A DNA stretch of 64,000 bases, taken from NCBI RefSeq assembly GCF_011045215.1, contig NZ_CP049201.1; one strand, written 5' to 3'. Source of the DNA: Escherichia coli. Its GTDB lineage: Bacteria; Pseudomonadota; Gammaproteobacteria; Enterobacterales; Enterobacteriaceae. This document shows, piece after piece, positions 5,659-61,832 of this stretch (its first letter is position 1; each line of letters opens with the position of its first letter). The notes beneath the pieces were generated by a model, which was given only the letters and a program-made list of their open reading frames with translations, was not told the origin of the DNA and did no database searches. The position numbers and the translations under genes are program-made.

Positions 5659-6072
5659 TCACGCAATTTTTCTGGCCATCAGATAGATGGCCGGTTCCTG
5701 CACAATTTCATCCAACAGATGAATGAATTGAATGCTACGCGCCTGCCACACAGACGTCGCGTCATCTGCCAGTGGCGCGAATGCCCGGGTCAACAGGGCG
5801 GTGTGGCTGGTGTCAATAACAATCTCACCAAAAGTCATCACCCCCAGCATCTTACGTCGGGCTTGCTCCTCTTCGACCAGTGCAAGCCAATCTTTGTATT
5901 CCGTCAGTGGGCAGCGGAAGGCGACATTCAGACAATCAATCACGCCAACGTGATGGCCGATAGCTAGCGAGTAATACATTACCTGAGAGCTGTGTTCCGG
6001 CATCTCGTCGCTACTGGCGACAAACTTTTTTCGCAGCGTCCAGAAAACAATTTCCCCGCACTCTTCAGTCAT
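5659..6072 (-). CDS. hyfJ: Hydrogenase-4 component J (HycH-like maturation factor)
   Basis: Track ORF 5659-6135; start trimmed to internal ATG ([10 protein letters not shown]...) to give the 137 aa expected for HyfJ. Confidence 0.75.
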
Positions 6073-7365: not shown

Positions 7366-7374
7366 CTTCTGTCC

Positions 7375-10660: not shown

Positions 10661-10664
10661 CTCA

Positions 10665-11314: not shown

Positions 11315-11325
11315 TCATCATCTCC

Positions 11326-12765: not shown

Positions 12766-12781
12766 ATTCCGTCAGTGCTCC

Positions 12782-13729: not shown

Positions 13730-13739
13730 GGTGATTTCC

Positions 13740-50679: not shown

Positions 50680-52079
50680 ACACTCGCCAGCTACTGAGCG
50701 TCGGTATCGATATCGGCACTACCACCACCCAGGTGATTTTCTCCCACCTGGAACTGGTTAACCGTGCGGCGGTGTCGCAGGTGCCGCGCTACGAATTCAT
50801 CAAACGCGAAATTAGCTGGCAAAGCCCGGTGTTCTTTACCCCTGTCGATAAACAGGGTGATTTAAAAGAAGCGGAACTGAAATCGCTGATTTTAGAGCAA
50901 TATCAGGCTGCGGGCATTGCACCGGAAAGCGTTGATTCTGGTGCCATCATCATCACCGGTGAAAGCGCGAAAACCCGCAATGCTCGCCCGGCGGTGATGG
51001 CGCTCTCTCAGTCGCTGGGCGATTTTGTCGTTGCCAGCGCCGGGCCGCACCTCGAATCCGTGATCGCCGGTCACGGAGCCGGGGCACAAACCCTTTCTGA
51101 ACAACGGCTGTGTCGGGTACTGAATATCGACATCGGCGGTGGCACCGCGAACTACGCCCTGTTCGATGCCGGAAAAATCAGCGGCACTGCCTGCCTCAAC
51201 GTCGGTGGTCGCCTGCTGGAAACCGACAGCCAGGGGCGCGTGGTTTACGCTCATAAACCGGGGCAGATGATTGTGGATGAGTGCTTCGGCGCAGGCACCG
51301 ACGCCCGTTCGCTGACCGGCGCGCAGCTGGTGCAGGTTACCCGGCGGATGGCAGAGCTGATTGTCGAAGTGATTGACGGAACGCTCTCGCCGCTCGCGCA
51401 GGCATTGATGCAAACCGGTTTGCTGCCCGCAGGTGTTACGCCCGAAATCATTACGCTTTCTGGCGGCGTGGGCGAATGTTATCGCCACCAGCCCGCCGAC
51501 CCGTTCTGTTTTGCCGATATTGGCCCGCTTCTGGCAACGGCGCTGCATGACCATCCGCGCCTGCGTGAGATGAACGTGCAGTTTCCGGCGCAAACCGTGC
51601 GTGCCACGGTGATTGGCGCGGGGGCACATACCCTTTCGCTCTCTGGCAGCACAATCTGGCTTGAGGGCGTACAACTGCCGCTGCGCAATTTGCCGGTGGC
51701 GATCCCGATTGATGAAACGGATCTGGTGAGTGCCTGGCAACAGGCGCTGATTCAACTGGATCTTGATCCCAAAACTGACGCGTACGTGCTGGCGCTTCCC
51801 GCCTCGCTGCCTGTGCGTTACGCCGCGGTACTGACGGTCATCAACGCGTTGGTCGATTTCGTCGCGCGTTTTCCGAATCCGCATCCCCTGCTGGTGGTGG
51901 CCGGGCAGGACTTTGGTAAAGCTCTGGGCATGTTGTTGCGCCCACAGCTACAACAACTCCCGTTGGCAGTCATTGACGAAGTGATTGTCCGCGCGGGGGA
52001 CTATATCGACATTGGTACGCCTCTTTTTGGCGGATCGGTTGTGCCGGTGACGGTGAAATCACTCGCATTTCCTTCCTGA
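50676..52079 (+). CDS. eutA: Ethanolamine ammonia-lyase reactivase EutA
   Basis: 467-aa ORF, ATGA overlap with eutH; ends at the island junction. Confidence 0.85.
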   Translation: MNTRQLLSVGIDIGTTTTQVIFSHLELVNRAAVSQVPRYEFIKREISWQSPVFFTPVDKQGDLKEAELKSLILEQYQAAGIAPESVDSGAIIITGESAKTRNARPAVMALSQSLGDFVVASAGPHLESVIAGHGAGAQTLSEQRLCRVLNIDIGGGTANYALFDAGKISGTACLNVGGRLLETDSQGRVVYAHKPGQMIVDECFGAGTDARSLTGAQLVQVTRRMAELIVEVIDGTLSPLAQALMQTGLLPAGVTPEIITLSGGVGECYRHQPADPFCFADIGPLLATALHDHPRLREMNVQFPAQTVRATVIGAGAHTLSLSGSTIWLEGVQLPLRNLPVAIPIDETDLVSAWQQALIQLDLDPKTDAYVLALPASLPVRYAAVLTVINALVDFVARFPNPHPLLVVAGQDFGKALGMLLRPQLQQLPLAVIDEVIVRAGDYIDIGTPLFGGSVVPVTVKSLAFPS

Positions 52080-52172
52080 ATACTGTAGTTATCAGGCGTG
52101 GCGCTGGGTTGCGGGGTGTTAGTGGGATTATATCCGGCTGTGTATCCGGTCGGGGTGATTGGTCTGTATAGC

Positions 52173-52198
52173 AAAACCCGGCGCGGGGCCGGGTGAAC
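52173..52198 (-). terminator. Rho-independent terminator after island gene 52201-52764
   Basis: Minus strand reads ACCCGGCcccgcGCCGGGTTTTG; an identical hairpin recurs at 53821-53843. Confidence 0.55.
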
Positions 52199-52200
52199 TA

Positions 52201-52764
52201 TCATTCAGGGAACAAGTTGATTTGAAGCAAACTGCCAATGTATTTACCAGTGCTTTTAATTTTTCGCTTTGATGGCTTACACGAATTCAGGTTGACACCA
52301 GCCTGGCTAGATATTGGCTTGTATTGCCGCTCCGCCAGTACGATCAGGTCTGCCGCGTCTTTTAGCTTTCCATCGTTAGCCAGTTCCAATGCTCGATCCG
52401 CCATTTGCCCGCATTGTTGAATCAGCTTAAGTTGCGATACCTCCAGTCGCAATTGCTGGATTCGTTCTACCACTTTCGCCCTAATGCGCTTAGTTTCACG
52501 CATTCCCATTCTTAATGCCTGGTTGCCAGTAAGTGAGTAAACCTCTTTTTCTTTCCTGAAGTTTGCGGCTTTACCGTCAGCTTGGACGCGCATTTTATGC
52601 GCTTCCAAGAATTCGCCCTCCAATTCATCCCTGATCTTCGCGTTGAATCTGTCGTTCTTGAGTTCATTTAACCCTTCCGCCTTGCGGATCTGGTTGATTA
52701 ACTCCAACAATTCATCACTGCGGATACGCCACTCGCTATCAACCTGTACCAAGTCAAACATGTT
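52201..52764 (-). CDS. Hypothetical island protein (about 187 aa from ATG MFDLVQVD; track ORF extends to a TTG at 52854)
   Basis: ORF track; SD-like gggag upstream of the internal ATG; coiled-coil-rich; no confident family assignment. Confidence 0.5.
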   Translation of the reverse strand, partial: NMFDLVQVDSEWRIRSDELLELINQIRKAEGLNELKNDRFNAKIRDELEGEFLEAHKMRVQADGKAANFRKEKEVYSLTGNQALRMGMRETKRIRAKVVERIQQLRLEVSQLKLIQQCGQMADRALELANDGKLKDAADLIVLAERQYKPISSQAGVNLNSCKPSKRKIKSTGKYIGSLLQINLFPE

Positions 52765-52920
52765 GTTGCTCCCGTTTTGCTGCCATAGGGCAACGGCTCG
52801 CCAGCCTTTATCACCTCCTTTAGTTGTTGCGATTCTTAACTGAATGGTTATCAAAACGCTGCGTTAATATCATTGATATGTATCAAATTTGTTTTGTGAC
52901 GCGACAATGCCTTGTGAATA

Positions 52921-52948
52921 TCAATAAAAAACCCAGCGCTATGGCTGG
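52921..52948 (-). terminator. Rho-independent terminator after island gene 52995-53723
   Basis: Minus strand CCCAGCcatagcGCTGGG followed by TTTTTTATTG. Confidence 0.55.
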
Positions 52949-52994
52949 GCTTCTCTTGATGGCTGGTTTTGTAGCTAATCGTTGGCTTTAAGGG

Positions 52995-53723
52995 TTAAGC
53001 AACAATATTAATCCCGCTCCTTGTCGCTGCCTCTTTGGCAATTTTCCCCTCGTCCTCCAGTTTAGCTAACGCCTTGTACATCCAGTGGCGGCCCGGTGCG
53101 CCATGCAGCTTGCCATCTTTGCCGATCTTACCGAACGCATGTAACGCCAAATCGTCGATAGTCCCCTTGTATCCGCCTTGCTCCTTAAGCCATTGCTCAA
53201 GCTGTTCTACTTTGAATTTTGCCGGACGTCCGCCAGCCGCTTTTTGTTGTTTAGCTGGTTCTTCTGCAATATCGCTTTTGTTGTTTAAGTCCGTCATGAC
53301 TGGTTCTCCTACAATAGCGTCGCCCTTGGTCTCGATTTGTTGATTAACTGGTTTGTCTACAATATCGATTTTGTTGTTTAGCTGGTTTTTCAACATATCA
53401 ATCTCAGCCTTTAGCGCCTCGTTTTCTCTGGCTAGTTCTTCGCAACGCTTGATAAATTTTTGTTCCATGCCGTCCGGGCTATCAACGTGCGCCGTACCCA
53501 TTACGATCTTCCCGTTGCTATCGAAGATGACAGCTTGCCAACCGACTGCGGCGAGCATTTTAAACACATCATCAGCGGTCTTGTTTGTTGTATCGCGACG
53601 CCCTTTAAACTTGTGGCTAGCAGCGCCTTTGCCTTTGAAGCCCATTGCCTCAGCGACATCTTGCCGCGTCATCTTGCGAGCGCGCTTGTTCATGCCTAAC
53701 TCAACCCAATCCATGTATTCCAT
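52995..53723 (-). CDS. Hypothetical island protein, basic N-terminus plus coiled-coil and internal repeats
   Basis: 242-aa ORF; repeated NNKIDIVDKPVNQQ / NNKSDIAEEPAKQQ segments, mirrored by imperfect DNA tandem repeats around 53280-53400. Confidence 0.55.
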   Translation of the reverse strand: MEYMDWVELGMNKRARKMTRQDVAEAMGFKGKGAASHKFKGRRDTTNKTADDVFKMLAAVGWQAVIFDSNGKIVMGTAHVDSPDGMEQKFIKRCEELARENEALKAEIDMLKNQLNNKIDIVDKPVNQQIETKGDAIVGEPVMTDLNNKSDIAEEPAKQQKAAGGRPAKFKVEQLEQWLKEQGGYKGTIDDLALHAFGKIGKDGKLHGAPGRHWMYKALAKLEDEGKIAKEAATRSGINIVA

Positions 53724-53820
53724 ACATTACCTCATTTTGTCGCTAAACGTTTTGCTTTCTAATTTATCAACAAAAAAGCGGGTGATGGTAGCCGCTTTGA
53801 TGGGGAAGTTGACAGGGATC

Positions 53821-53843
53821 AAAAACCCGGCGCGGGGCCGGGT
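53821..53843 (-). terminator. Rho-independent terminator (second copy of the 52173 hairpin)
   Basis: Minus strand ACCCGGCcccgcGCCGGGTTTTTGATC, just downstream of gene 53861-54091. Confidence 0.55.
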
Positions 53844-53860
53844 ATTAGCAAGTTAGATGA

Positions 53861-54091
53861 TTACTGGGTATCGCTGTCAGAAAGTAGTCCAATTGATTTA
53901 AAGAATTTCATCACATCCTGATAGCGATACATGACGCCCCGCCCGGTTCCCAGCACATCAACAGGGTCGGGGAATGGAGTTCCGTTCTGTTCCCATTTCT
54001 TACGCCACGAATAAAACGTTCCCCTGCTAATTCCGCCCAGCATCCGGCAGATGGCAGGGCGGCTAAGAAGGATTACTTCATTTTTATCCAT
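53861..54091 (-). CDS. AlpA/excisionase-like HTH DNA-binding protein
   Basis: 76 aa; LSRPAICRMLGGISRGTFYSWRKKW resembles the AlpA-family HTH. Confidence 0.5.
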   Translation of the reverse strand: MDKNEVILLSRPAICRMLGGISRGTFYSWRKKWEQNGTPFPDPVDVLGTGRGVMYRYQDVMKFFKSIGLLSDSDTQ

Positions 54092-54110
54092 TGTTTAATC
54101 TCCCGTGTGT

Positions 54111-54299
54111 TTATTTTGCGTAGATTAAGGCAAATGCTCTTTTGGCTTTGCTTAGTTCGTATTCGCGTTTTTCTATGATTGCCATCAGTTCTTGTGCGGT
54201 GGCTGGCACGCCCGCTCTTATCAGCGCAATCTTAGTATCCATAGCGCACACTCTTTCACGCACCATATCGAAGATAATTTCCGCTCTATCGTGTTTCAT
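54111..54299 (-). CDS. Small hypothetical island protein (62 aa)
   Basis: ORF track; co-directional and closely spaced with the AlpA-like gene. Confidence 0.4.
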   Translation of the reverse strand: MKHDRAEIIFDMVRERVCAMDTKIALIRAGVPATAQELMAIIEKREYELSKAKRAFALIYAK

Positions 54300-54502
54300 G
54301 ATTTCACCTCATATTTGTTGCTAAACCTTGTAAACCCTTGTTTGACTACAAAATACACCTGGTTAAGCGACTGATAAAATGATTTAGGTCAATTTATTGG
54401 TTGATGATTTATGTCTGATTGGATTTGTCTACAAATGGCAGGTTAGTCAACAAATGATGAAACCAGGGAATGGCGGTTATAATGTCAGCGGGGATTGTGA
54501 GA

Positions 54503-54545
54503 AAGGCCCGGGTAGGTTGCTAACTGCCTGGGCCTTTATTTTTGG
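54503..54545 (+). terminator. Plus-strand rho-independent terminator candidate inside the minus-strand gene array
   Basis: aaaggcccgggtagg..cctgggccttt hairpin (about 14 bp stem with two G-U pairs) followed by atttttgg; on the minus strand no U-tract follows. Confidence 0.45.
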
Positions 54546-54648
54546 CGCGTGTACGTGAAATCTGGAAAATTTGCAGGGTAGTTGTTGAGGGATTTTTCGC
54601 GTAGGAGCGTGAAGGGTCCGCCAGTCATCGCCCTGACGTAGCGGTGAA

Positions 54649-55050
54649 TTACTTGCGAGGCTCACCCATCGGCCAGGCACCTTCATTGCGACGATAACCA
54701 ATCCGGTACTCTTCCGGCAGCGGCAAGCCCTGCTCACGATATGGACGCAGATCGAAGCCAAAAACAGGATCGTCGTCGTAGGCGAGGAATAGCCCGGCAG
54801 GCTCTGCCACGCGTTCGATAATCAGTTCCCCATCTTCAACGAAGAAGATCAGATTATCGCGAAAGTCCGTTACCTCACTGACGTGATAACATTCGGCATG
54901 TGCGTCCAGCCAGGCTTCTCGGTATTCCTGAATCTCGGCTTCTGACCATGTTGAAACAGGACGCTCCCAAATTCCCAGGCTGGATTTGCCCTGGCGGGAG
55001 AATAATTTTGCCTCTTTGCTCTGCTCTGGTTTTCTGTTTAAAAAGCTCAT
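54649..55050 (-). CDS. Hypothetical island protein (133 aa)
   Basis: ORF track; SD ggagaa upstream of ATG; start overlaps a TAA of an upstream open frame (TAATG). Confidence 0.5.
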   Translation of the reverse strand: MSFLNRKPEQSKEAKLFSRQGKSSLGIWERPVSTWSEAEIQEYREAWLDAHAECYHVSEVTDFRDNLIFFVEDGELIIERVAEPAGLFLAYDDDPVFGFDLRPYREQGLPLPEEYRIGYRRNEGAWPMGEPRK

Positions 55051-55186
55051 TATTCTTCTCCTTTGAACGGATTGTTCTTGCTCTCTAATAACTTAGCGCG
55101 ACCCAGTAACGTCCGGGCAAGCGCCTCCGCCTTCCTTAGCCTAAGCCCTGCGTCTTCTGCGTCCAGATCTACATTCCTGATAGCCT

Positions 55187-55450
55187 CTACAGCCTGCTCC
55201 GCTGCGTCCGGGCGTGAATCCACTTAAATATGCCGATATGCTCACGAAAGTCTGGATGCTCATATTGCCAGCGGCAGATTGTTCTGAAGCTCGGCATGTC
55301 AGGCATGTTGCCAATCTCTCTGAGACTATGGCCTTCAGCTACCAGCAAGCAGATTTCTTCAGCGATAGCGACCCCATACTTAGCGCTTTTTCTGCTTAAA
55401 CTTGTGACATCAACAGGTAAGTTATTGATTTCTTTATCATCACCCTTCAT
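55187..55450 (-). CDS. Hypothetical HTH-like island protein (87 aa)
   Basis: ORF track; SLREIGNMPDMPSFRTICRWQ segment is HTH-like; preceded by the 11-bp repeat array. Confidence 0.45.
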   Translation of the reverse strand: MKGDDKEINNLPVDVTSLSRKSAKYGVAIAEEICLLVAEGHSLREIGNMPDMPSFRTICRWQYEHPDFREHIGIFKWIHARTQRSRL

Positions 55451-55522
55451 AATTACCCCCGAATTGATAGCGAATTGATAGCGAATTACCCCGAATTACC
55501 CCCGAATTACCCCCGAATCACC
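55450..55522. repeat. Array of seven 10-11 bp direct repeats (gaattaccccc / gaattgatagc)
   Basis: taattaccccc, gaattgatagc x2, gaattacccc, gaattaccccc x2, gaatcacc, read directly from sequence. Confidence 0.9.
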
Positions 55523-55527
55523 ATCAT

Positions 55528-55809
55528 TTAACCCTCGCCTACGTCTGCGTCGATGCTTGCTAACTGGCTGTGTAGATCGCGTTCAATCATTTTTACCTTT
55601 TTCACAAAATCCCTTTCCTCGGCGGTGGCGGGCGCGCCCTGGGCTATGTTTTTCGTGAGGTCGTGGAAAGTGCCGAAAACATAAAGGGAGAACAGCCTTA
55701 ATTGTTGCCGCTTCATTGGCAAATCACTGTTGCTATGTTTGATCTCAGCGACGCCTTTCGAAATAACACGGGCCATCCCATGACAAATTCTTAACGTAAG
55801 CGCAGACAT
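55528..55809 (-). CDS. Hypothetical island protein (93 aa)
   Basis: ORF track only. Confidence 0.4.
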   Translation of the reverse strand: MSALTLRICHGMARVISKGVAEIKHSNSDLPMKRQQLRLFSLYVFGTFHDLTKNIAQGAPATAEERDFVKKVKMIERDLHSQLASIDADVGEG

Positions 55810-55930
55810 GATATTTACTCCCCGACTGGTATAATGAACGTGGTTTTAAACGTTGCTATTTGCTAACCATTTAATCTGTTAACTCAATTTCGCATTGTTG
55901 GCCCGGCACGAACACCGGGCTTTTCTTTAC

Positions 55931-56272
55931 CTATTCGAAATAGCTTCCAATATCCGGTGTCCGGGTATCAGTTTTCCGGGTCGGCTCGAAGTACGATTCC
56001 AGATCCGGCGTTTTCGGCCCACGCTGGGCGTTGGCGGCGGGTTGCTTTTCTTCTGGCTGTTCCGGCTGTTTACTACCAAATCGGCGCTCCAGTTGGTCCA
56101 TCAGCACTACCATCATTTCCTGGACCAGCTTTTCATCGGCTTTATCAAGGTTCTCCAATACCATCGCCATCCCTTTGCGGAATTTAAGCTCAGCGTCGTC
56201 CGGTTCCGGTGCTGATTCGTTTGCTTTAACTGCCAGGGCGATCCGGCGTTTTGCTTCATCCAAAAAATTCAT
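55931..56272 (-). CDS. Hypothetical acidic island protein ending in SYFE motifs (113 aa)
   Basis: ORF track; C-terminus DLESYFEPTRKTDTRTPDIGSYFE. Confidence 0.5.
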   Translation of the reverse strand: MNFLDEAKRRIALAVKANESAPEPDDAELKFRKGMAMVLENLDKADEKLVQEMMVVLMDQLERRFGSKQPEQPEEKQPAANAQRGPKTPDLESYFEPTRKTDTRTPDIGSYFE

Positions 56273-56277
56273 TTTGT

Positions 56278-56721
56278 TTATTCCCCCATGTGGAAATAGT
56301 CATCTAAGCGGCGATTAAACTCGTCGCTGCCATCGAAATATTCACGGATACTTTTATTGACCAGATCATCACCGTCGAAATACTGGCGCGTGAAATCGTC
56401 CAATTCCCCATCGAAGTATTGACGTGTGAAATCGTCTAATTCCCCTTCAAAATATTGACGCGCATCAGGCGCTCTGTTTGGCGCTGTAGCAATCTCAGAT
56501 TGATTGCCCTGTAACTTATCGACGTTTGCTAAATACACGCCCAGTGAGCTGTTTGTTCCCATTACCGCAAGCATTTTCCGGCGATCTGCCATGTTCGGCG
56601 CGAGCGATGATAATTGAGCTTTAATTTTGTCCACTTCCTGATTAACAATACGGTCAATCAGTGGTTGATTCGTGCGAATAATTTCCTGTGCCAACTGGCG
56701 AATATATTCTTTGCGTGTCAT
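56278..56721 (-). CDS. Hypothetical island protein with tandem QYF[ED]GELDDFTR repeats (147 aa)
   Basis: ORF track; encoded by 36-bp tandem DNA repeats at about 56376-56463. Confidence 0.5.
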   Translation of the reverse strand: MTRKEYIRQLAQEIIRTNQPLIDRIVNQEVDKIKAQLSSLAPNMADRRKMLAVMGTNSSLGVYLANVDKLQGNQSEIATAPNRAPDARQYFEGELDDFTRQYFDGELDDFTRQYFDGDDLVNKSIREYFDGSDEFNRRLDDYFHMGE

Positions 56722-56739
56722 TTCTTATCTCCGTTCATC

Positions 56740-57123
56740 TCATTTCTGTAAAAAACCCATACCGTGGCCCAGGCGATTTGAAATTTTCCCGGCAAGCATC
56801 CGGCGAATATGTTTTTCGTTGATGATGTCGTGAGTGACCGGATCTTCACCTTTCATACATTCCGGCATCTGGTCAAACAATACGGAAGCGCCTTCATCAA
56901 TAATCTCAGTTAAGACTGCTGGCAGCATATTAATGATGCGTTCTGCTTCGTCGTTCATTGCTTTATCGAACGCTTTTTTATCCATTGCTTCGGCGGATGG
57001 TTTGTAATTGTCGCCAGTCAGGTTAAGGTAAGTGTTGTTTGGGTGATACATGGCATTCACTCCTTTTACTTTGATTGTTGCGATTTCTTTGTTTTTGTTA
57101 ATTGTGGTGCCTTTGACTTTCAT
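56740..57123 (-). CDS. Hypothetical island protein (127 aa)
   Basis: ORF track; ATGA start/stop overlap with the upstream HNH-like gene. Confidence 0.45.
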   Translation of the reverse strand: MKVKGTTINKNKEIATIKVKGVNAMYHPNNTYLNLTGDNYKPSAEAMDKKAFDKAMNDEAERIINMLPAVLTEIIDEGASVLFDQMPECMKGEDPVTHDIINEKHIRRMLAGKISNRLGHGMGFLQK

Positions 57124-57539
57124 GCTGCTTCTTCCTTCAATAATTGTGGCAATTTGCCTGTTAGTTCGATTTCTTCATTAATAGATGCAAGTAACTGTCT
57201 CAGTTTGCGATGTAATAGCTGGTGACGCTCTCTCGGCATTTTTACCAGGTTGCTTAAGCGGTTATTCTGCGGATCGTAGTCCCGGTGATGGATATCATAT
57301 TTTCGCTCATCGTAAACACCGTAGCACCATAACCAGGCAGCCTTTTCTATTGTCATGCAGGTACGTTTTCCGTTGCTTAAACAAATGGTTATACTCAGGT
57401 GACCGCGATGTTTTTCGTTTAAGCTGCCTTTAATTACCTGGCCTGTGCTGCGGTTGTGAAATAAACCAGTTTCAGGGTCGTAGTGATATTTCTGTCGTAA
57501 TATATCAACTGATAACCGTAGTCTTGTAAGATTGTCCAT
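57120..57539 (-). CDS. HNH-family endonuclease-like protein
   Basis: 139 aa; AAWLWCYGVYDERKYDIHHRDYDPQNNRLSNL resembles the phage HNH_3 pattern (from memory). Confidence 0.55.
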   Translation of the reverse strand: MDNLTRLRLSVDILRQKYHYDPETGLFHNRSTGQVIKGSLNEKHRGHLSITICLSNGKRTCMTIEKAAWLWCYGVYDERKYDIHHRDYDPQNNRLSNLVKMPRERHQLLHRKLRQLLASINEEIELTGKLPQLLKEEAA

Positions 57540-57571
57540 GATGTTCTACCTCAATGTGATTGCTGTGTTAA

Positions 57572-57757
57572 TTATCTTTCTTCTTGTGGCCTATTCAGCC
57601 AGGCCTCGATCTCGCTACGCCAGAATAATAAACGACAATTTCGCGGCGTAAATGGTTGGGGTATTGTCTTATCTTTTAATAGCCATCTTCGAATCGTTCT
57701 TGTTGATACCCCCGCTATTAATGCGAAAGCTCGCAGATCTATAACTTCATCTCTCAT
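57572..57757 (-). CDS. AlpA-family transcriptional regulator
   Basis: Internal ATG with SD gaggt; MRDEVIDLRAFALIAGVSTRTIRRWL...LFWRSEIEAWL matches the AlpA HTH signature; the track's N-terminal extension is low-complexity repeat translation. Confidence 0.6.
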   Translation of the reverse strand: MRDEVIDLRAFALIAGVSTRTIRRWLLKDKTIPQPFTPRNCRLLFWRSEIEAWLNRPQEER

Positions 57758-57780
57758 GTTCTTACCTCGATTAAAAAGGA

Positions 57781-57839
57781 CCGCCCCCAGGGAAAGAAGA
57801 AAGAGGAAAGAGGAAAGAGGAAAAACTTCCTGGAGGCGG
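57781..57839. repeat. Homopurine heptamer repeat (GAAAGAR x4) inside an 11-bp inverted repeat
   Basis: ccgcccccagg [agggaaagaagaaagaggaaagaggaaagaggaaaaa] cttcctggaggcgg; 24-82 nt upstream of the AlpA-like start codon. Confidence 0.85.
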
Positions 57840-58537
57840 GTAATTCGGATTCCTTGAATCAATATCCCATGTGATACTTAATATTATAAAGGGCGGCGGG
57901 CTATGTCGCTATTTTTGCCATAGTGTGACACCATTAATTTATTAACAAAAAGTGCTATTTATTAAATCTTTTTTCGGCAGGTGCAAGAAAAATAATTGCG
58001 ACACGGTAGGGTAGCGGGCGATAATAATCATGTAAGGAGTAGCCACCTTACGCCTCCAAATGTGATCGATAAAAATAATAGTCTCAATTCTTTCTCCCGC
58101 TTCTCGGCGGTTTTTTTGCCTGCAATCACACATCAAAAAAACACATCGAATTGATATGCCTTTAAAACGCAATATAACGCATTTTGACGGCCTTAATTTT
58201 TGCCTATCCACTCGGAAGCGTAAGCCTGTTTTGATTCGTCTGGCGTGGAATGGTGCGGCGGTAATATCAGATCTCAGCGTTCTGTGTGGTGGGATGGAAT
58301 AGCCTGGCAGGATCTGCGTGTGATTTCATTCATCCAACCTTGGATGAATGGTCCGATCTGGTCAGTAGTCCGGCACAAATAAAAAGCGCCTGCGGGCGTA
58401 GCAGACGCTTTGTGTACAGGCTTATCAGTACGGGATGTGCACGAATGATTATACCACCCTCAGAAAAACGTTTGCTTTTGCACTTAAACGGATAAGTGGT
58501 ATTTCTTGGTCTTCATTGGTTTTAGCTCACCATAGGC

Positions 58538-58765
58538 TCATTTAGGTGCGCCCCTGTCGATAATTCGGTACATGTTCTCGGTATATCTCCCGTTAATCAC
58601 CGTTCTGGTAACAACAATCACACCGTTTTCCTCCAGAAAGGCAATGGCCCGCTTCACTCCCTGGCGGCTTACACCGGATAGCTGCGCCAGCCTGTCAATG
58701 GAGATGTTGTATTTGTCCGGCTGGCTTGTCAGGATCTGGAATACCGCTCGTGCTGTTTTCGTCAT
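58538..58765 (-). CDS. Winged-helix/HTH DNA-binding protein (75 aa), candidate island regulator
   Basis: ISIDRLAQLSGVSRQGVKRAIAFLEENGVIV HTH-like segment; divergent from the plus-strand cargo module. Confidence 0.5.
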   Translation of the reverse strand: MTKTARAVFQILTSQPDKYNISIDRLAQLSGVSRQGVKRAIAFLEENGVIVVTRTVINGRYTENMYRIIDRGAPK

Positions 58766-59037
58766 GGCAAAAACTCATTGAAATTGGATACCCTTAGAAC
58801 GCTCTCAAACGCTCCGTAATGCGATGAGAATTTTACCTAAGCAAGTGTAGCTCTTTATTAGTTTTATGATGCCGTAGGCCGATAGAAGGTGCGCTCTCTG
58901 AAGTTTCATTGTCTATCAGTGGTGGGTAATGCTGCCTTTACTATTGGCGTCAAGAAAATCACTGGTGTAGATTGGGCGAATAGTTTACTATTCAAACAAG
59001 GCACAATGGCCTTAGCGGATTGATGTCAGGAGATACC

Positions 59038-59385
59038 ATGTCAAAAATAGTTACTTTGTTTGCGACTAAGCGAGAAGGGAAATCCCTTTCTGTGCGCACT
59101 CGTAAGCCAAAAGCTATGACTGGCTTGCGTAAAACAAATCGTCTGACGCATCTTGACGCGTTAGCGTATCGACTAGGATACCAGTTGGTGCGCGGTAAAA
59201 GTGTCATGTTTCGCTACACTGCTACTCTCGATCACGAAGAAAACAAAGTGATGAATGCGGCCTCGCCTATGGCTGTACCACGAGTAAAAAAAATGACGTT
59301 CACACAAGCGTGTGATTTATCAAAAGATTTATTCGATTCACGAGAAGAACGCTTAAAGAGTGTAAGCTTTGATGGTCCAGAATGA
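59038..59385 (+). CDS. Hypothetical basic protein (115 aa), candidate antitoxin or partner of downstream gene
   Basis: ATG at 59038 with SD aggaga 5 nt upstream; stop overlaps the downstream start by 14 nt; AT-rich. Confidence 0.5.
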   Translation: MSKIVTLFATKREGKSLSVRTRKPKAMTGLRKTNRLTHLDALAYRLGYQLVRGKSVMFRYTATLDHEENKVMNAASPMAVPRVKKMTFTQACDLSKDLFDSREERLKSVSFDGPE

Positions 59386-59887
59386 ATTTATTGGTAAGGT
59401 CTACAGTGATAACAAGTTTAAAACAAACGATGAATTAAAGAGCTTTAAGGATTCGTTTATTTATCATTGGAGATATGGACATCATCCTGATTTTGGAAAG
59501 GATACTCTTTTCCATAAACCCCCGTGTGTATATCCTATCCATTTACGTAAAGTCCATGTAAATATTGGTCTTTATACCAATCAGTACGGCTATAGCGGGA
59601 CAGAACAATGCTGGGATGACTGGTCTACTGGTCGTTATGGTCCCGGTGGTTTCGAAAAAGTTACCCCTACATCTGATGCTTATCTTATATACGCTGTATG
59701 TAAAAATAGAAATGCTGGCGTGTTAGACTTCTGGTTTCCTCCCGCACACAAAAACGCTGAGTTCGAATCCTCTGTACAGTTTGTGGCTGAGATGGCTGAT
59801 AAGTTTTATGAGTCTATCAAGGCGGACCCGATGCCGCGCGATCAGAATCCTTGGCATACGGGGTATATAGTTAAAAAACCAGCCTGA
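59372..59887 (+). CDS. YafO-like toxin-domain candidate (171 aa)
   Basis: FIYHWRYGHHPDFGKDTLF...HLRKVHVN...SDAYLIYAV resembles remembered YafO motifs (FISYKRDG..PDTFGRDALY, HIHL, AHLVYC); family assignment unverified. Confidence 0.45.
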   Translation: MVQNEFIGKVYSDNKFKTNDELKSFKDSFIYHWRYGHHPDFGKDTLFHKPPCVYPIHLRKVHVNIGLYTNQYGYSGTEQCWDDWSTGRYGPGGFEKVTPTSDAYLIYAVCKNRNAGVLDFWFPPAHKNAEFESSVQFVAEMADKFYESIKADPMPRDQNPWHTGYIVKKPA

Positions 59888-60438
59888 TCCACGCAATACT
59901 GATTGTTTTTGGCCTTGTATGGTGTGGTCTGATTTGAGGCAAAATTATTTAATCCCTTAAAAAACTAACTTCAAAAGACTAAAACCAGGGGGATGGTCCC
60001 TCTCGCTCCGCTCCAGGTACCATCCCTGTCGGGATGGGTTTATTGTAGAGTTAAAATTAATTACTCACATCGTCACACCTTGCGAAAGTTTTGCTCAATT
60101 ATCATTCAAACATAGCACAAAAAATATTCGATTTAGTTAGTGTGCACTGACTTTTTTATCAATTTACTTTCATTCGAAAGTCATGGGTTAAATATTAATC
60201 ATCTGGCTGTGGCACGCATGGATTCACCGAGGGTATTTTGGACCATTTGGTCAAAATTCATAAGTACATGATTTCATGGTGATTTATTTTTCTGTATCTT
60301 GCTTTCATTCGAAAGTGGAAACGAAGAATTGGCAATTTATTGATTCAGATCATTGACATTGCATATTTGTGGCGGTTGTCACGGTTGTTTTTTGAGCGCT
60401 TCAACCGTCGATATTGAGTATAAACCCGGCCTTATAGT

Positions 60439-61644
60439 TCACGGTTCAAGTGGATTACCGTCACCAGCCAATATTGAATCAATAGCGTCGGCGTAATCCT
60501 GCATCATTGCTCGCCGTTGCTTCAGGTAGGCCGCCTGGTTATAAACGCCGCGCACACCTTTCGGGACGTGGGCCAATTGGATTTCGATCCAGTCTGGTGA
60601 GTATCTGCCAGACTCATTAAGCGCCGTTGAAAAGGTGGTCCGCCAGCCATGACCAGTGGCAATGGATTTATAGCCGATCCTCTCAAGCGCCTTCAGTATC
60701 GCGCTGGCTGAAAGTGGCTTATCCATGAATCGACCAGGGAAGACGAAAGCACTGTATCCGCTCCTTGTAAACTGGTCCTGTAATAGCTCCACCGCCTGCC
60801 GTGATAGCGGGACCACATGCGGGCGGCGGGCCTTCATGACTTCAGCGGGCAATGTGATTGTTGCGTCCTCCAGGTTTATCCATTCCCAACGGCACAAACG
60901 CAGTTCTGCGGTCCTTAATGCCGTTAATATAAGCAAACGTATTGCCGTCTGAATCTGGACGCTCCCGGCCCTCTCAAGGGCTTTGTAGAAGGCCGGAATT
61001 TCACTAATCGGTATCCACGCGTTGTGACCAGGTCGGCGGGCCTTCAGTGCCGTATCAAGATCTGCAACCGGATTCCTCGTTACCAGTTCGGTGATAACGG
61101 CAAACTTGAAGATCTCACCGATGCGCTGGCGTAGCTTGCGGGCCTGCTCCGGTGCGGTACGTTCTTTCTTCTGGAGTAATGCCAGCACGTCACGGGCGGT
61201 TATATCGACAATCGACCGCTTGCCAAGTACCGGATAGACGTCTTTTTCTAGGGCCGATCTGACCTGTTTTGCATAGGATTCCGACCACCCTCCAACCCTA
61301 GTAGCAAACCAGTCTTCCGCCACCTTCTTAAATCCTGCCGCCATGTTGAGCGCATCAATGGCTTTTTCCTTGCGGGCTTGTTCCACTGGGTTAATTCCAT
61401 TGGCAATAAGGGATCTGCTCTCCGTGGCGCGCCTGCGTGCTTCTTTGAGTGTGATTAGCGGGTAAACACCAATAGCCTGCAAAAACTCTCGTTTATTCAA
61501 CCAATACCTGAATCGCCAGTATTTCGAACCGTTGGGATGCACCAGCAAAAACAGCCCCGGCGTCAGTGAATCGGTGAGTTTATAGGGCTTGTCCTGCGGC
61601 TGTGCGGCGTCTATGGCCTTTGCTGTGAGTGGTGTCTTGCTCAA
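60439..61644 (-). CDS. intZ: P4-type tyrosine integrase
   Basis: 401-aa ORF; N-terminal arm-binding-like domain plus catalytic region (HGWRTT...RGVYN); at the island edge next to eutB as for CPZ-55 IntZ. Confidence 0.85.
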   Translation of the reverse strand: MSKTPLTAKAIDAAQPQDKPYKLTDSLTPGLFLLVHPNGSKYWRFRYWLNKREFLQAIGVYPLITLKEARRRATESRSLIANGINPVEQARKEKAIDALNMAAGFKKVAEDWFATRVGGWSESYAKQVRSALEKDVYPVLGKRSIVDITARDVLALLQKKERTAPEQARKLRQRIGEIFKFAVITELVTRNPVADLDTALKARRPGHNAWIPISEIPAFYKALERAGSVQIQTAIRLLILTALRTAELRLCRWEWINLEDATITLPAEVMKARRPHVVPLSRQAVELLQDQFTRSGYSAFVFPGRFMDKPLSASAILKALERIGYKSIATGHGWRTTFSTALNESGRYSPDWIEIQLAHVPKGVRGVYNQAAYLKQRRAMMQDYADAIDSILAGDGNPLEP

Positions 61645-61832
61645 AACCGGATACCTTGATTTAACGACTGGATAACCCCGATCATGTATCCGGCGCGTTC
61701 GGTTGCGTTCGGCAGGATAAGTAACGGGCGTATTAAGTGGAACACCTTACAGGACAAGGGCTAACGATGAAATAGAATTGTTTGCAGGCTGTGAGAAATG
61801 TTAATCGTCACTTCTTCCTGAGGGAACGACTT

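What the first reader, a model, noticed from the sequence alone, without database searches (positions are those of the whole stretch)
52080..61813. Variant cargo island at the eutA/eutB (CPZ-55) site, bounded by an 8-bp direct repeat
The eut operon is split exactly between the eutA stop and the eutB SD by about 9.7 kb carrying a P4-type integrase. cttcctga occurs at both junctions (52072-52079 and 61814-61821), as expected for an attachment core or target duplication. From memory, the gene sizes here do not match the K-12 CPZ-55 set, so this looks like a different element using the same site. All island genes but two run antisense to eut, which leaves open how eutBC (downstream) is transcribed.
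Basis: partly seen in the sequence, partly recalled or inferred. Interest (0 to 1): 0.55.

Follow-up and report, generated by a model that had tools for sequence, protein, structure and literature searches.

The report
CPZ-55-family element splitting eut operon
A 9.7-kb mobile element of the same family as the E. coli K-12 "cryptic prophage" CPZ-55 sits between two genes of the ethanolamine-utilisation operon; this insertion hot spot is already known, so the find is correct but ordinary, although the element family looks more like an unrecognised phage satellite than a dead phage.

Summary
A 9,734-bp insert (52080-61813) separates the eutA stop codon from the eutB ribosome-binding site. It is flanked by CTTCCTGA, which occurs once in unoccupied E. 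coli eut loci.

It is not an unrelated element. Its integrase is 99% identical to K-12 IntZ, both attachment arms are conserved, and it keeps diverged homologues of YffO (an Sf6-type small-terminase-like protein, frameshifted here) and YffM in the same order. Otherwise only about a quarter of the 10.9-kb stretch compared (island plus eut flanks) matches K-12, and no complete E. coli genome carries the same mosaic.

A near relative inserted in yghO carries CTTCCTGA on one side only. The 8 bp is therefore the recombination core, not a target duplication.

The element has no capsid, portal, large terminase, lysis or replication genes, yet its ORFs are under purifying selection. It is best read as a partly decayed, satellite-like integrative element.

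Strong plus-strand terminators inside it, and published K-12 data, predict that eutBCLK is silenced until precise excision.

The site, the repeat and the existence of variants are already published. This is a new member of a known kind, of low to moderate interest.

The parts
50676..52079 (+). eutA; its stop codon TGA (52077-52079) lies inside the attL core
   Evidence: ORF list. 99% identical to annotated eutA of E. coli SFE8.
52072..52079 (.). attL copy of the 8-bp core CTTCCTGA
   Evidence: A single copy is present in the empty site L001.
52080..52200 (.). P' arm of the attachment site. Holds the invariant TATCCGGCTGTGTATCCGGT (TATCCGG at 52131 and 52143; candidate arm-type integrase sites) and a - strand terminator hairpin at 52176-52194.
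   Evidence: Alignment of six family members, including K-12. Motif positions; terminator scan.
52201..52761 (-). 186-aa protein, weakly anti-repressor-like
   Evidence: PHROG anti-repressor families, E 8e-6 to 3e-4; no Pfam hit. dN/dS 0.21-0.27 against relatives.
52995..53723 (-). 242-aa protein annotated in relatives as helix-turn-helix/XRE, with a coiled-coil middle. Weak homologue of K-12 YffS. Followed by - strand terminator 52926-52955.
   Evidence: RefSeq names of homologues. 26% identity to YffS, E 0.014. Only weak coiled-coil hits in Pfam. dN/dS 0.12-0.38. Terminator.
53861..54091 (-). 76-aa Xis-like DNA-binding protein. Followed by - strand terminator 53825-53843, whose 22-nt block (53822-53843) is identical to 52173-52194 at attL.
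   Evidence: phrog_4745, E 3e-11. Weak Xis_Gifsy_1 hit. 84-86% nt identity over 212 bp to the HTH gene next to int in phages mEp021, mEp515 and mEp554. Repeat family D4.
54111..54299 (-). 62-aa protein of unknown function
   Evidence: 100% identical in L003 and L004. No family hit.
54293..54640 (+). Family-wide conserved non-coding block: a perfect -10 TATAAT (54478-54483), a conserved leader, and a 14-bp-stem + strand intrinsic terminator (54502-54546). In relatives the tape-measure gene sits just beyond it.
   Evidence: No credible Rfam match.
54649..55050 (-). 133-aa protein of unknown function, immediately downstream of the TerS-like gene
   Evidence: No hit in PHROG, NCBIfam, PADLOC or Pfam. 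dN/dS 0.15 against L004.
55050..55450 (-). Sf6-type small-terminase-like gene, the homologue of K-12 yffO. Here it is a pseudogene, split into 87-aa and 57-aa ORFs by a 1-nt deletion between 55209 and 55210.
   Evidence: phrog_1482, E 8e-12. Intact homologue matches Sf6 gene 1 protein, PDB 4DZJ/3HEF, E 4e-8. Homologues carry PF20901. Protein and DNA alignments show the frameshift.
55451..55522 (.). Six tandem 11-bp units (AATTCG + 5 nt) that abut the start codon of the TerS-like gene
   Evidence: Present only in the same TerS subtype.
55528..55809 (-). 93-aa protein, homologue of K-12 YffM
   Evidence: 36% identity, E 8e-12.
55931..57123 (-). Three conserved ORFs of unknown function: 113 aa (55931-56272), 147 aa (56278-56721, with a repeated RQYFDGELDDFT motif) and 127 aa (56740-57123; homologues start at residue 25)
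   Evidence: No family hits. dN/dS 0.10-0.24 against four relatives.
57120..57539 (-). 139-aa HNH endonuclease
   Evidence: PHROG HNH families, E down to 9e-11. PADLOC HEase, E 2e-5. The exact protein occurs in other elements at the eut site.
57572..57757 (-). 61-aa AlpA/excisionase-type HTH protein. The listed ORF extends to 57862 from a TTG start.
   Evidence: phrog_66 'excisionase and transcriptional regulator', E 3e-7. Pfam HTH_17, E 1e-3.
58538..58765 (-). 75-aa winged-helix protein, a candidate regulator. Followed by - strand terminator 58383-58411.
   Evidence: PHROG hits to the N-terminal DNA-binding domains of replication initiators and regulators, E 6e-8. 88-100% identical in relatives. 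Terminator.
59038..59887 (+). The only + strand genes: a 115-aa ORF (59038-59385) overlapping a 172-aa YafO-family toxin-like ORF (59369-59887). A putative toxin-antitoxin pair in the variable slot next to int.
   Evidence: RefSeq name of the 99%-identical homologue. phrog_1651, E 9e-43. Pfam YafO_toxin only at E 0.009. The slot holds other genes in K-12, C41 and ampC_0069.
60439..61644 (-). IntZ tyrosine integrase, 401 aa, apparently intact
   Evidence: Pfam three-domain architecture. 99.25% identical to K-12 IntZ, dN/dS 0.05.
61645..61813 (.). P arm of the attachment site: conserved CCGGATACC, GATAACCCC and TGTATCCGGC, a GCGTTCGG doublet, and promoter-like hexamers on both strands
   Evidence: Alignment. 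Promoter scan: - strand 61804-61777 facing int, + strand 61751-61778 facing eutB.
61814..61821 (.). attR copy of the core CTTCCTGA, followed by the native eutB Shine-Dalgarno sequence
61833..63194 (+). eutB, intact but separated from the eut promoter by the insert
   Evidence: ORF. Annotated homologue.

Best explanation
The insert is a mosaic, partly decayed member of the CPZ-55 (IntZ) family of small integrative elements of E. coli.

Shown:
- An IntZ-type tyrosine integrase with an arm-binding domain recombined an attP, whose core is CTTCCTGA, with the identical 8 bp that spans the eutA stop codon.
- This left the core at both junctions and left eutA, the eutB Shine-Dalgarno sequence and eutB intact.
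- The element keeps the family backbone: int, a variable slot, a winged-helix regulator, an AlpA/Xis-like gene, small conserved ORFs, an Sf6-type TerS-like gene, a conserved non-coding block, and accessory units each with its own terminator.
- It lacks every gene needed to build a capsid, lyse the cell or replicate.
- Here the TerS-like gene is frameshifted, and the tape-measure gene carried by its closest relatives is absent.

Inferred:
- The family is helper-dependent and satellite-like, working roughly as TerS-encoding PICIs or PICMIs do: excision by Int plus an AlpA/Xis-like protein, and redirection of a helper phage's large terminase by the element's own TerS. I put this at about 0.45.
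- This copy can probably still excise but could no longer be packaged.
- Because almost all its genes are antisense to eut and it contains strong + strand terminators, transcription from the eut promoter should stop inside it. eutBCLK would then be silent and the strain Eut-negative until precise excision rejoins the operon.
For: Junctions and empty site:
- define the junctions. The same core flanks K-12 CPZ-55 and four other family members at eut.

Core rather than target duplication:
- Empty yghO reads gaatat|CAATCAGG|aaagcgg.
- The occupied site reads gaatat-CTTCCTGA-element...element-CAATCAGG-aaagcgg.
- That is the pattern expected after tyrosine-recombinase exchange at a secondary site with a non-identical overlap, followed by replication.

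Family membership:
- IntZ is 99.25% identical to K-12 and 92-93% to other members.
- Both arms and the 170-bp block are conserved.
- YffO is 49-52% identical and YffM 36% identical to the syntenic ORFs.

Genes are real:
- dN/dS is 0.05-0.38 for nearly all ORFs measurable against relatives; the short winged-helix gene reaches 0.47-0.69 on a handful of substitutions.

Satellite-like content:
- The TerS-like protein matches Sf6 gp1 structures at E 4e-8 and homologues carry PF20901.
- HNH and AlpA/Xis-like genes are present.
- No capsid, portal, TerL, lysis or primase hit appeared in any of the ORFs searched against PHROG, NCBIfam, PADLOC or Pfam.
- There is no DNA similarity to 50,697 phage records apart from 212 bp.
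- The TerS-like family forms 118 clusters at 90% identity. All but two of the named ones are from E. coli, and every E. coli context inspected is eutA/eutB.
- The module also occurs with a DUF5906 primase in contigs L009/L010.

Decay in this copy:
- A 1-nt deletion in the TerS-like gene.
- 2.5 kb carrying the tape-measure gene is missing relative to L003.

Polarity:
- + strand terminators at 54502-54546 (RNA fold -28.5 kcal/mol against -16.4 for the opposite strand) and at 55900-55921.
- In BW25113, eutS and eutR rise in ethanolamine but eutB does not, and no microcompartments form (bioRxiv 10.1101/2024.05.13.593892).
- CPZ-55 excises at under 1e-5 (PMC3105296), and W3110 and EMG2 have lost it (bioRxiv 10.1101/2022.06.29.497745).
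Against: - No helper phage, induction, packaging or transfer has been shown for any member of the family.
- No replication module was found in the window or in K-12, which PICIs are expected to have.
- The AlpA-like assignment is borderline (Pfam E 1e-3) and the YafO assignment is weak (Pfam E 0.009).
- Full-length relatives carry a genuine tape-measure gene (phrog_1538, E 4e-96) and a Neck1/gp10-like gene. These are phage structural genes and fit a prophage remnant as well as a satellite.
- The TerS-like protein has no close homologue in any sequenced E. coli phage. No relative was found in IMG/VR with the peptide patterns used.
- The frameshift could be a sequencing error. Its exact product is not on record elsewhere.
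- Polarity on eutB is predicted from hairpins and from K-12 data, not measured for this variant. A promoter-like site facing eutB exists in the attR arm (61751-61778). It is absent from K-12.
Confidence: 0.8

Rival explanations
1. It is the deletion remnant of a normal-sized temperate phage (a defective prophage in the classical sense). The TerS-like, HNH, Neck1-like and tape-measure genes would be leftovers of a complete morphogenesis region. The element would have no life cycle of its own beyond occasional excision.
For: - The family is catalogued as a cryptic prophage (PMC3105296, PMC6379469).
- Relatives carry a full-length tape-measure homologue and a gp10/Neck1-like gene.
- This copy shows decay: a frameshift and absence of the tape-measure gene.
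- No replication gene was found.
Against: - No member inspected, from 6.8 to about 12.9 kb, has capsid, portal, TerL, tail tube or lysis genes.
- The same compact backbone recurs in many divergent variants under purifying selection. Random decay would not give this.
- No sequenced phage shares DNA with it beyond 212 bp, and none supplies a close TerS.
- The order TerS, small ORF, gp10, tape-measure, with no head or tail-tube genes between them, is not a phage gene order.
Confidence: 0.3
2. It is a transposon-like insertion that generated an 8-bp target-site duplication, as CPZ-55 is described in PMC6379469.
For: An 8-bp direct repeat flanks the insert, and a single copy is in the empty site. 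PMC6379469 uses this wording.
Against: - The relative in yghO has CTTCCTGA only on the left and the unduplicated native CAATCAGG on the right. The 8 bp therefore travels with the element.
- No transposase is present.
- A complete arm-binding tyrosine integrase and conserved att arms are present.
- Independent variants all use the identical site.
Confidence: 0.03
3. It is an unrelated island that merely shares the eutA/eutB attachment site with CPZ-55.
For: Only 26% of the 10.9-kb query matches K-12 by megablast. Most K-12 yff proteins have no detectable homologue here.
Against: - The integrase is 99.25% identical.
- Both arms and an internal non-coding block are conserved.
- YffO and YffM homologues are syntenic.
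- Intermediate mosaics connect the variants.
Confidence: 0.05
4. The element acts as a reversible genetic switch ('active lysogeny'). It keeps ethanolamine catabolism off and restores it by regulated precise excision under conditions where ethanolamine use pays.
For: - Integration preserves both flanking genes and the eutB Shine-Dalgarno sequence exactly, so excision regenerates a wild-type operon.
- Int and two Xis-like genes are intact.
- K-12 lineages have lost CPZ-55 cleanly (bioRxiv 10.1101/2022.06.29.497745).
- CPZ-55 blocks eutB induction (bioRxiv 10.1101/2024.05.13.593892).
Against: - Measured excision of CPZ-55 is very rare, under 1e-5 (PMC3105296).
- No link between ethanolamine or B12 and excision is known.
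- Preservation of flanking genes is the normal outcome of site-specific integration and needs no adaptive explanation.
Confidence: 0.08

Closest known systems
CPZ-55 cryptic prophage of E. coli K-12 (intZ, yffL-yffS)
   Same: - The same attB (CTTCCTGA at the eutA stop) and the same orientation.
- A 99.25% identical integrase.
- Conserved P and P' arms.
- A 92%-identical internal non-coding block with a + strand terminator.
- Syntenic homologues of YffO (TerS-like) and YffM, and weakly of YffS.
   Different: - 9.7 kb here against 6.8 kb in K-12.
- Most genes are replaced. A YafO-like toxin-antitoxin pair stands in place of yffL.
- Winged-helix, AlpA-like and HNH genes, four small conserved ORFs and Xis-like and Ant-like units have no K-12 counterpart.
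- The TerS-like gene is frameshifted here and intact in K-12.
Other elements at the eutA/eutB hot spot (for example UPEC U71 in PMC6652756; strains C41, K99B, ampC_0069, O157:H7 F3113, CFIAFB20180540 in RefSeq)
   Same: The same family backbone and mosaic exchange of modules. Segments are 86-98% identical to the window.
   Different: - None covers 80% or more of the island except CFIAFB20180540 (83% coverage, 93.8% identity). That one sits in yghO and carries a 729-aa gene (RefSeq 'hypothetical protein') where ampC_0069 has its 729-aa tape-measure protein.
- The window combines a K-12-type integrase with non-K-12 content.
Phage-inducible chromosomal islands (PICIs) of Gram-negative bacteria, e.g. 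EcCICFT073 and EcCIMP1 (PMC11773190)
   Same: - About 10 kb, with an integrase at one end.
- An AlpA-family gene heads a long same-strand operon.
- A packaging gene of the TerS type.
- No capsid or lysis genes.
- A variable accessory slot next to int.
- A second Xis-like gene at the far end resembling a phage Xis, as described for EcCIMP1.
   Different: - No primase/replicase or recognisable origin.
- No experimental helper.
- Relatives carry tail genes (tape-measure, Neck1-like), which PICIs by definition lack.
PICMIs, the minimalist satellites of Vibrionaceae (PMC10803314)
   Same: A minimal gene set built around an integrase, an AlpA-type regulator and a TerS homologue, without capsid-remodelling genes (PMC10803314 abstract). 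That PICMIs also lack replication genes rests on my own knowledge.
   Different: A different host family (Vibrionaceae against E. coli). PICMIs are satellites of virulent phages. No sequence relationship was tested. The resemblance is functional only.

Membership tests
CPZ-55 / IntZ family of elements at eutA-eutB | IntZ-type integrase | tested here: met
   99.25% aa identity to K-12 IntZ over 401 aa, dN/dS 0.05.
CPZ-55 / IntZ family of elements at eutA-eutB | Integration at the 8-bp core that overlaps the eutA stop codon, with int next to eutB | tested here: met
CPZ-55 / IntZ family of elements at eutA-eutB | Conserved attP arms | tested here: met
   Alignments A3 and A4. The P' arm is 84% and the P arm 91% mean column identity, with invariant TATCCGG-containing blocks.
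CPZ-55 / IntZ family of elements at eutA-eutB | Same gene complement as the K-12 type element (yffL-yffS) | tested here: not met
   Only YffO (49-52%), YffM (36%) and weakly YffS (26%) have homologues. Three DNA segments are shared. It is a member of the family, not a copy of the K-12 element.
Arm-binding (P4-type) tyrosine integrases | N-terminal Arm-DNA-bind_3 domain, a central domain and a C-terminal catalytic domain | tested here: met
   Pfam PF13356 (E 1e-22), PF22022 (E 1e-29), PF00589 (E 1e-20). The motifs LRTAEL, HGWRTT and LAH...VYNQAAY are visible in the translation. Catalytic activity is not testable here.
PICI (phage-inducible chromosomal island) | Integrase at one end and an AlpA-type master regulator | tested here: inconclusive
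   The integrase is present. The AlpA-like ORF gives only phrog_66 at E 3e-7 and HTH_17 at E 1e-3. It is separated from int by the toxin-antitoxin pair and a winged-helix gene.
PICI (phage-inducible chromosomal island) | Primase/replicase and origin | tested here: not met
   No primase, helicase or Rep hit in the ORFs searched against PHROG, NCBIfam or Pfam. The only hint is a 75-aa winged-helix protein resembling initiator DNA-binding domains.
PICI (phage-inducible chromosomal island) | Packaging-redirection gene (TerS or Rpp) | tested here: met
   An Sf6-type TerS-like gene, frameshifted in this copy.
PICI (phage-inducible chromosomal island) | No phage structural or lysis genes | tested here: inconclusive
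   Met in the window. Several family members encode a tape-measure protein and a Neck1/gp10-like protein.
PICI (phage-inducible chromosomal island) | Induction, packaging and high-frequency transfer by a helper phage | not testable with these tools
   No experimental report found.
P4-like satellites | psu, delta, sid, alpha (primase) and epsilon genes | tested here: not met
   No PHROG or Pfam hit to any of these. Only the integrase type is shared.
Capsid-forming PICIs (cf-PICIs) | Own capsid, protease, portal and large terminase genes | tested here: not met
   None detected in the window or in annotated relatives.
Type II toxin-antitoxin system, YafO family | YafO_toxin domain plus an adjacent small antitoxin gene | tested here: inconclusive
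   Pfam PF13957 only at E 0.009 but covering model positions 13-100 of 101. RefSeq names the 99%-identical protein a YafO-family toxin. The upstream overlapping 115-aa ORF has no family hit.

The most novel reading that the evidence does not exclude
The CPZ-55 family may not be a set of dead prophages. It may be an unrecognised family of helper-dependent phage satellites, found here almost only in E. coli.

Its features would be:
- a fixed home between eutA and eutB;
- no replication module;
- a fast-diversifying Sf6-type small terminase (118 clusters at 90% identity);
- a conserved small + strand RNA or terminator cassette;
- in full-length members, its own tape-measure and neck proteins.

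Its residence would also act as a reversible off-switch for ethanolamine catabolism.
Probability: 0.3. Interest if true: 0.6.

Novelty: new member of a known kind. Interest (0 to 1): 0.3.

Why it matters
For this genome, it predicts that the strain cannot induce ethanolamine ammonia-lyase or form Eut microcompartments unless the element excises. Ethanolamine use is tied to gut and urinary-tract fitness.

More generally, about 8% of complete E. coli genomes carry a relative of this island (456 of 5,426), at this site in every context inspected but one. Many of those genomes appear to be K-12 laboratory derivatives. What these elements are has never been worked out.

The comparison made here has three outcomes. 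It corrects the published 'transposon-like target duplication' description. It shows that the K-12 element is a diverged, reduced member of a larger mosaic family. It gives a concrete, testable case that the family is satellite-like.

Tried and rejected
- **Known defence or cargo genes.** PADLOC, NCBIfam and Pfam found none, apart from a weak YafO hit and an HNH hit.
- **RNA families.** Rfam at E up to 1 gave only two chance-level hits.
- **A parent or helper phage.**
  - blastn of 7.9 kb of the island against 50,697 phage records matched only 212 bp.
  - tblastn of the TerS-like protein found only remote hits in Pseudomonas and Bordetella phages.
  - The relatives' tape-measure protein reaches about 30-45% identity to siphovirus proteins in the listed hits; one unlisted phage record scored 90-95% over an unknown stretch and was not examined.
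- **Family members in IMG/VR viral contigs.** None was confirmed with the peptide patterns used.
- **Small contigs (7-10 kb) carrying the TerS-like gene as possible excised or packaged forms.**
  - The one ENA contig examined still had eutA and eutB flanks.
  - The Logan contigs L009/L010 were a different element with a primase.
- **TATCCGG as an arm-site motif.** It is common throughout the window (22 copies against 5.7 expected). Only its clustering and invariance in the arms carries weight.
- **A promoter for eutB.** One 9-of-12 match lies in the attR arm, but promoter-like sites in the region are no more frequent than in shuffled sequence (13 against 14.3).
- **Literature linking CPZ-55, intZ or the yff genes to satellites.** None found.
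- **An exact copy of the frameshifted TerS fragment elsewhere.** None is on record.
- **Structure prediction.** Not attempted. The unknown ORFs have only shallow, E. coli-only alignments.

Full report
**1. Checking the observation**

The motif CTTCCTGA lies at 52072-52079 and 61814-61821 (sequences). On its own it is weak evidence. It occurs six times on both strands of the window against 1.4 expected, and 2 of 100 shuffles reach six.

The comparison with unoccupied loci is decisive. In E. coli SFE8 the annotated eutA ends and eutB begins 11 nt apart. The sequence reads ...catttcCTTCCTGAgggaacgacttATG, with a single copy of the motif. In the window the left copy closes eutA (50676-52079). The right copy is followed by the same gggaacgacttATG of eutB (ATG 61833). 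The insert is therefore exactly 52080-61813, or 9,734 bp.

- G+C falls from 0.55-0.62 in eut to 0.39-0.50 in the insert.
- The flanks match 5,423 of 5,426 complete E. coli genomes, mostly at 95-99% identity.
- All plausible genes are on the minus strand except two overlapping ORFs at 59038-59887.
- The 401-aa ORF next to eutB has the Arm-DNA-bind_3, Phage_int_M and Phage_integrase domains.

**2. What is already published**

CPZ-55 is described as integrated right after the eutA stop with an 8-bp duplication, TCAGGAAG. This is the reverse complement of CTTCCTGA. It was found in 8% of 638 genomes (PMC6379469).

The eutA/eutB junction is drawn as a 'prophage insertion hot spot', and a 'novel prophage' at the same site is reported in UPEC strain U71 (PMC6652756).

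In BW25113, eutS and eutR rise in ethanolamine medium but eutB does not, and no microcompartments form (bioRxiv 10.1101/2024.05.13.593892). CPZ-55 excises at under 1 per 100,000 cells (PMC3105296). W3110 and EMG2 have lost it (bioRxiv 10.1101/2022.06.29.497745).

The site, the repeat, the existence of variants and the polar effect are therefore all known in outline.

**3. Relation to K-12 CPZ-55 and to other occupants of the site**

Against a K-12-type genome (L002), only three DNA segments match:

| Window segment | Content | Identity to K-12 |
|---|---|---|
| 51900-52193 | end of eutA plus the P' arm | 92.6% |
| 54470-54639 | non-coding block | 92.4% |
| 60442-62000 | int, the P arm and the start of eutB | 94.0% |

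Despite this, the integrase is 99.25% identical to K-12 IntZ (10 nonsynonymous against 51 synonymous differences). It is only 92-93% identical to the integrases of five other occupants.

K-12 YffO is 49-52% identical to the two halves of the TerS-like gene. YffM is 36% identical to the 93-aa ORF upstream of it. YffS is weakly similar (26%, E 0.014) to the 242-aa ORF near attL. All three are in the same relative order. Both attachment arms align across six elements with invariant blocks.

So the window and K-12 carry diverged members of one family, not unrelated elements.

Within 5,426 complete genomes, 456 have some match to the island interior. Only one covers 80% or more: CFIAFB20180540, at 83% coverage and 93.8% identity. 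The others share different subsets of segments. That is the pattern of a mosaic family.

Relative to CFIAFB20180540 the window is colinear, with two exceptions:
- 2.5 kb holding a 729-aa gene is absent at about 54617-54626.
- The segment 57053-58018 (HNH plus AlpA-like) is replaced.

The exact HNH protein occurs in other elements at the eut site that do carry a tape-measure gene.

**4. The 8 bp is the recombination core, not a target duplication**

CFIAFB20180540 carries its element in yghO, not in eut.
- The unoccupied yghO reads gaatat-CAATCAGG-aaagcgg.
- The occupied locus reads gaatat-CTTCCTGA-atacggtag... on the left and ...cgtcgctt-CAATCAGG-aaagcgg on the right.

Nothing of the target is duplicated, and CTTCCTGA arrives with the element.

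This is what tyrosine-recombinase integration at a secondary site with a non-identical overlap gives after replication: one junction keeps the donor overlap and the other keeps the target overlap. That statement rests on established knowledge of lambda secondary-site integration. The first and seventh positions (C and G) are shared between the two sequences. That fits a 7-bp overlap cut at both ends, but it is an inference.

**5. Gene content**

From attR to attL the island holds:

| Coordinates | Strand | Feature | Evidence |
|---|---|---|---|
| 60439-61644 | - | int | |
| 59038-59385 and 59369-59887 | + | putative toxin-antitoxin pair | toxin: phrog_1651 E 9e-43, Pfam YafO_toxin only E 0.009, RefSeq name 'YafO family toxin' for the 99%-identical homologue |
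| 58538-58765 | - | 75-aa winged-helix protein with its own terminator | |
| 57572-57757 | - | AlpA/excisionase-type HTH | |
| 57120-57539 | - | HNH endonuclease | |
| 55528-57123 | - | four small ORFs without any family hit | |
| 55050-55450 | - | TerS-like gene | |
| 54649-55050 | - | 133-aa ORF | |
| 54293-54640 | + | conserved non-coding block | |
| 54111-54299 | - | 62-aa ORF | |
| 53861-54091 | - | 76-aa Xis-like protein | phrog_4745 E 3e-11; 84-86% nt identity to the HTH gene beside int in phages mEp021, mEp515, mEp554 |
| 52995-53723 | - | 242-aa HTH/coiled-coil protein | |
| 52201-52761 | - | 186-aa weakly anti-repressor-like protein | |

The last three units each end in their own minus-strand terminator.

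No ORF matches a capsid, portal, large terminase, tail tube, holin, endolysin, primase or helicase family, or any PADLOC defence model other than an HNH 'HEase'.

The unknown ORFs are real genes. Against relatives diverged by dS 0.4-0.8, dN/dS is 0.10-0.24 for the 113-, 127-, 133- and 147-aa ORFs. It is 0.12-0.38 for the 186- and 242-aa ORFs.

**6. The TerS-like gene and signs of decay**

The intact homologue from CFIAFB20180540 matches the solved small terminase of Shigella phage Sf6 (4DZJ, 4DYC, 3HEF; E about 4e-8) over residues 23-107. Its database relatives carry PF20901 (Sf6_terminase).

In the window the gene is cut into 87-aa and 57-aa ORFs by loss of one A, between 55209 and 55210. The surrounding DNA is 97% identical to the intact gene. 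The exact truncated product is not on record elsewhere, so a sequencing error cannot be excluded.

With the missing tape-measure segment, this copy looks like a decayed derivative. It still has an intact integrase, intact arms and cores, and two Xis-like genes.

**7. What the family looks like**

The TerS-like profile finds 118 clusters at 90% identity among 5.8 billion proteins. Of those that carry a source name, all but two (one Escherichia sp., one partial Staphylococcus epidermidis record) are from E. coli. Pairwise identities to the query go down to about 31%. Every E. coli context inspected lies between eutA and eutB, with the same backbone.

Full-length members (about 11-13 kb) add two genes:
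- a 718-731-aa tape-measure protein (phrog_1538, E 4e-96, full-length; PF20155 in relatives);
- in some, a gp10/Neck1-like protein.

They do not have any head, tail-tube or lysis gene.

Two Logan contigs that are not from the eut site carry HNH, small ORFs, the TerS-like gene and a YffP-like gene. These sit next to a DNA invertase and a DUF5906 primase. The packaging-type module therefore also travels with a replication gene in another element.

No sequenced phage shares DNA with the island beyond 212 bp. No E. coli phage has a close TerS. The pattern-based scan of IMG/VR confirmed no relative.

**8. Most likely mechanism**

Shown:
- site-specific integration by an IntZ-type integrase at an 8-bp core;
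- membership of the CPZ-55 family;
- a gene set that cannot make a virion, lyse a cell or, as far as can be detected, replicate;
- purifying selection on the backbone.

Inferred, at about 0.45: the family is helper-dependent and works like TerS-encoding satellites. After a helper phage is induced or infects, an AlpA/Xis-type protein and Int would excise the element. Its own small terminase would recruit the helper's large terminase to the element's DNA. The HNH and small conserved ORFs would act in packaging or interference.

The rival reading is a stabilised prophage remnant. It is favoured by the tape-measure and neck genes in relatives and by the absence of any demonstrated helper. It is disfavoured by the constant compact architecture, the selection on ORFs, the non-phage gene order and the absence of any parent phage.

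By the PICI definition used in PMC11773190 (integrase, AlpA, primase, no structural genes), the primase criterion is tested and not met. The no-structural-genes criterion fails in relatives. I therefore do not file it as a PICI. It works most like a TerS-only minimal satellite such as the PICMIs (PMC10803314). No homology to them was tested.

**9.

A transcript from the eut promoter enters the island antisense to its genes.
- The attL hairpin (52176-52194) has its T-run on the other strand.
- A 14-bp-stem hairpin followed by TTTATTTTT at 54502-54546 is a plus-strand terminator. As RNA it folds at -28.5 kcal/mol (z -3.0) on the plus strand, against -16.4 on the minus strand.
- A second terminator-like site is at 55900-55921.

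The first of these lies in the block that is 92% identical in K-12, where eutB is experimentally uninducible.

I therefore predict the same polarity here: eutS-eutA inducible, eutBCLK not. eutR would still be made from its own promoter, which is established for Salmonella and E. coli eut and is stated in the bioRxiv paper.

Two caveats apply.
- A promoter-like site facing eutB (AGGACA-16-TAGAAT, 61751-61778) is present in the window and three relatives, but not in K-12.
- The plus-strand toxin-antitoxin operon could leak transcription through int. Neither caveat is more than a consensus match or a possibility.

Precise excision would restore a wild-type junction, because the core, the stop codon and the Shine-Dalgarno sequence are all preserved.

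**10. Novelty and score**

The finding is a correct reading of a real feature. The hot spot, the repeat, the polar effect and the existence of variants are already known.

What is new is modest:
- this particular mosaic, which is absent from 5,426 complete genomes;
- the evidence that the 8 bp is an att core;
- the recognition that K-12 CPZ-55 is a reduced member of a larger, satellite-like family found almost only in E. coli.

I rate it a new member of a known kind, with interest 0.3. The most novel reading not excluded, a new satellite family that also acts as an eut switch, gets probability 0.3.

Noticed in passing
window 54293-54640 (core 54470-54546, + strand): A non-coding block is conserved across the whole family, 92% identical to K-12 although the flanking genes are unrelated. 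It is present once per genome in 304 of 5,426 E. coli genomes and is unannotated in 39 of the 40 records listed.

It holds a perfect -10 TATAAT, a conserved leader GGGGATTGTGAGAAAG, and a strong + strand terminator whose G-U pairs work only on the + strand. Strain C41 has a different hairpin plus T-run at the same place.

It is a candidate 55-60-nt antisense small RNA or attenuator. There is no Rfam match.
   Followed up: partly
L003 (E. coli CFIAFB20180540) 1493-14003; empty site L007 480-510: The closest relative of the island is integrated in yghO, not in eut. It has the element's CTTCCTGA at attL and the native CAATCAGG at attR, so there is no duplication. This is a secondary-site integration that defines the overlap region.
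   Followed up: yes
window 55451-55522: Six tandem 11-bp units (AATTCG + GGGGT or CTATC on the coding strand) run straight into the start codon of the TerS-like gene. They occur only with this TerS subtype (5-6 copies in CFIAFB20180540 and C41). Other subtypes have unrelated upstream sequence. They could be a cognate binding or pac-like array.
   Followed up: partly
L006 4352-6997; L017 2695-4893; L018-L020: Full-length family members encode a genuine 718-731-aa tape-measure protein (phrog_1538, E 4e-96; PF20155). Some also encode a gp10/Neck1-like protein. They have no tail tube, chaperone, head or lysis genes. That is an odd combination for either a satellite or a prophage remnant.
   Followed up: partly
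L009 1-10391 and L010 (Logan contigs SRR32385924_58, SRR32385951_134): A yffN/TerS-like/yffP-like module, 76% identical to K-12 at the DNA level, sits with an HNH gene, a DNA invertase and a DUF5906 primase. This element is absent from complete E. coli genomes. The module therefore also occurs in a replication-competent element.
   Followed up: partly
window 53900-54111: The gene for the 76-aa Xis-like protein is 84-86% identical at the DNA level to the HTH gene next to the integrase of lambdoid phages mEp021, mEp515 and mEp554. This is the only phage DNA match in the island. It recalls the helper-type Xis carried by the PICI EcCIMP1 (PMC11773190).
   Followed up: no
window 52173-52194 and 53822-53843: Two identical 22-nt copies of a - strand terminator hairpin (AAAACCCGGCGCGGGGCCGGGT) close two separate accessory units. 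A third, diverged copy is at 52928-52949.
   Followed up: no
window 56375-56462 (within ORF 56278-56721) and the C-terminus of ORF 55931-56272: A 36-bp coding repeat gives about 2.4 tandem copies (TRF) of an RQYFDGELDDFT-type peptide, with further YF[DE]G motifs downstream. The neighbouring 113-aa protein ends in two SYFE motifs. These repeated acidic/aromatic peptide motifs have unknown function.
   Followed up: no
window 57791-57823: GGAAAGA is repeated 4.7 times (TCTTTCC on the coding strand), just upstream of the AlpA-like start codon.
   Followed up: no
window 61751-61778 (+ strand): A promoter-like site, AGGACA-16-TAGAAT, in the element's attR arm points into eutB. It is conserved in C41, K99B and ampC_0069 but not in K-12 or CFIAFB20180540. 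It is statistically unremarkable in the scan.
   Followed up: no
protein family of window 55050-55450 (P0001-P0118): The TerS-like family is found almost only in E. coli, yet splits into 118 clusters at 90% identity, with identities down to about 31%. That is unusually high diversity for a gene at a single chromosomal site.
   Followed up: partly
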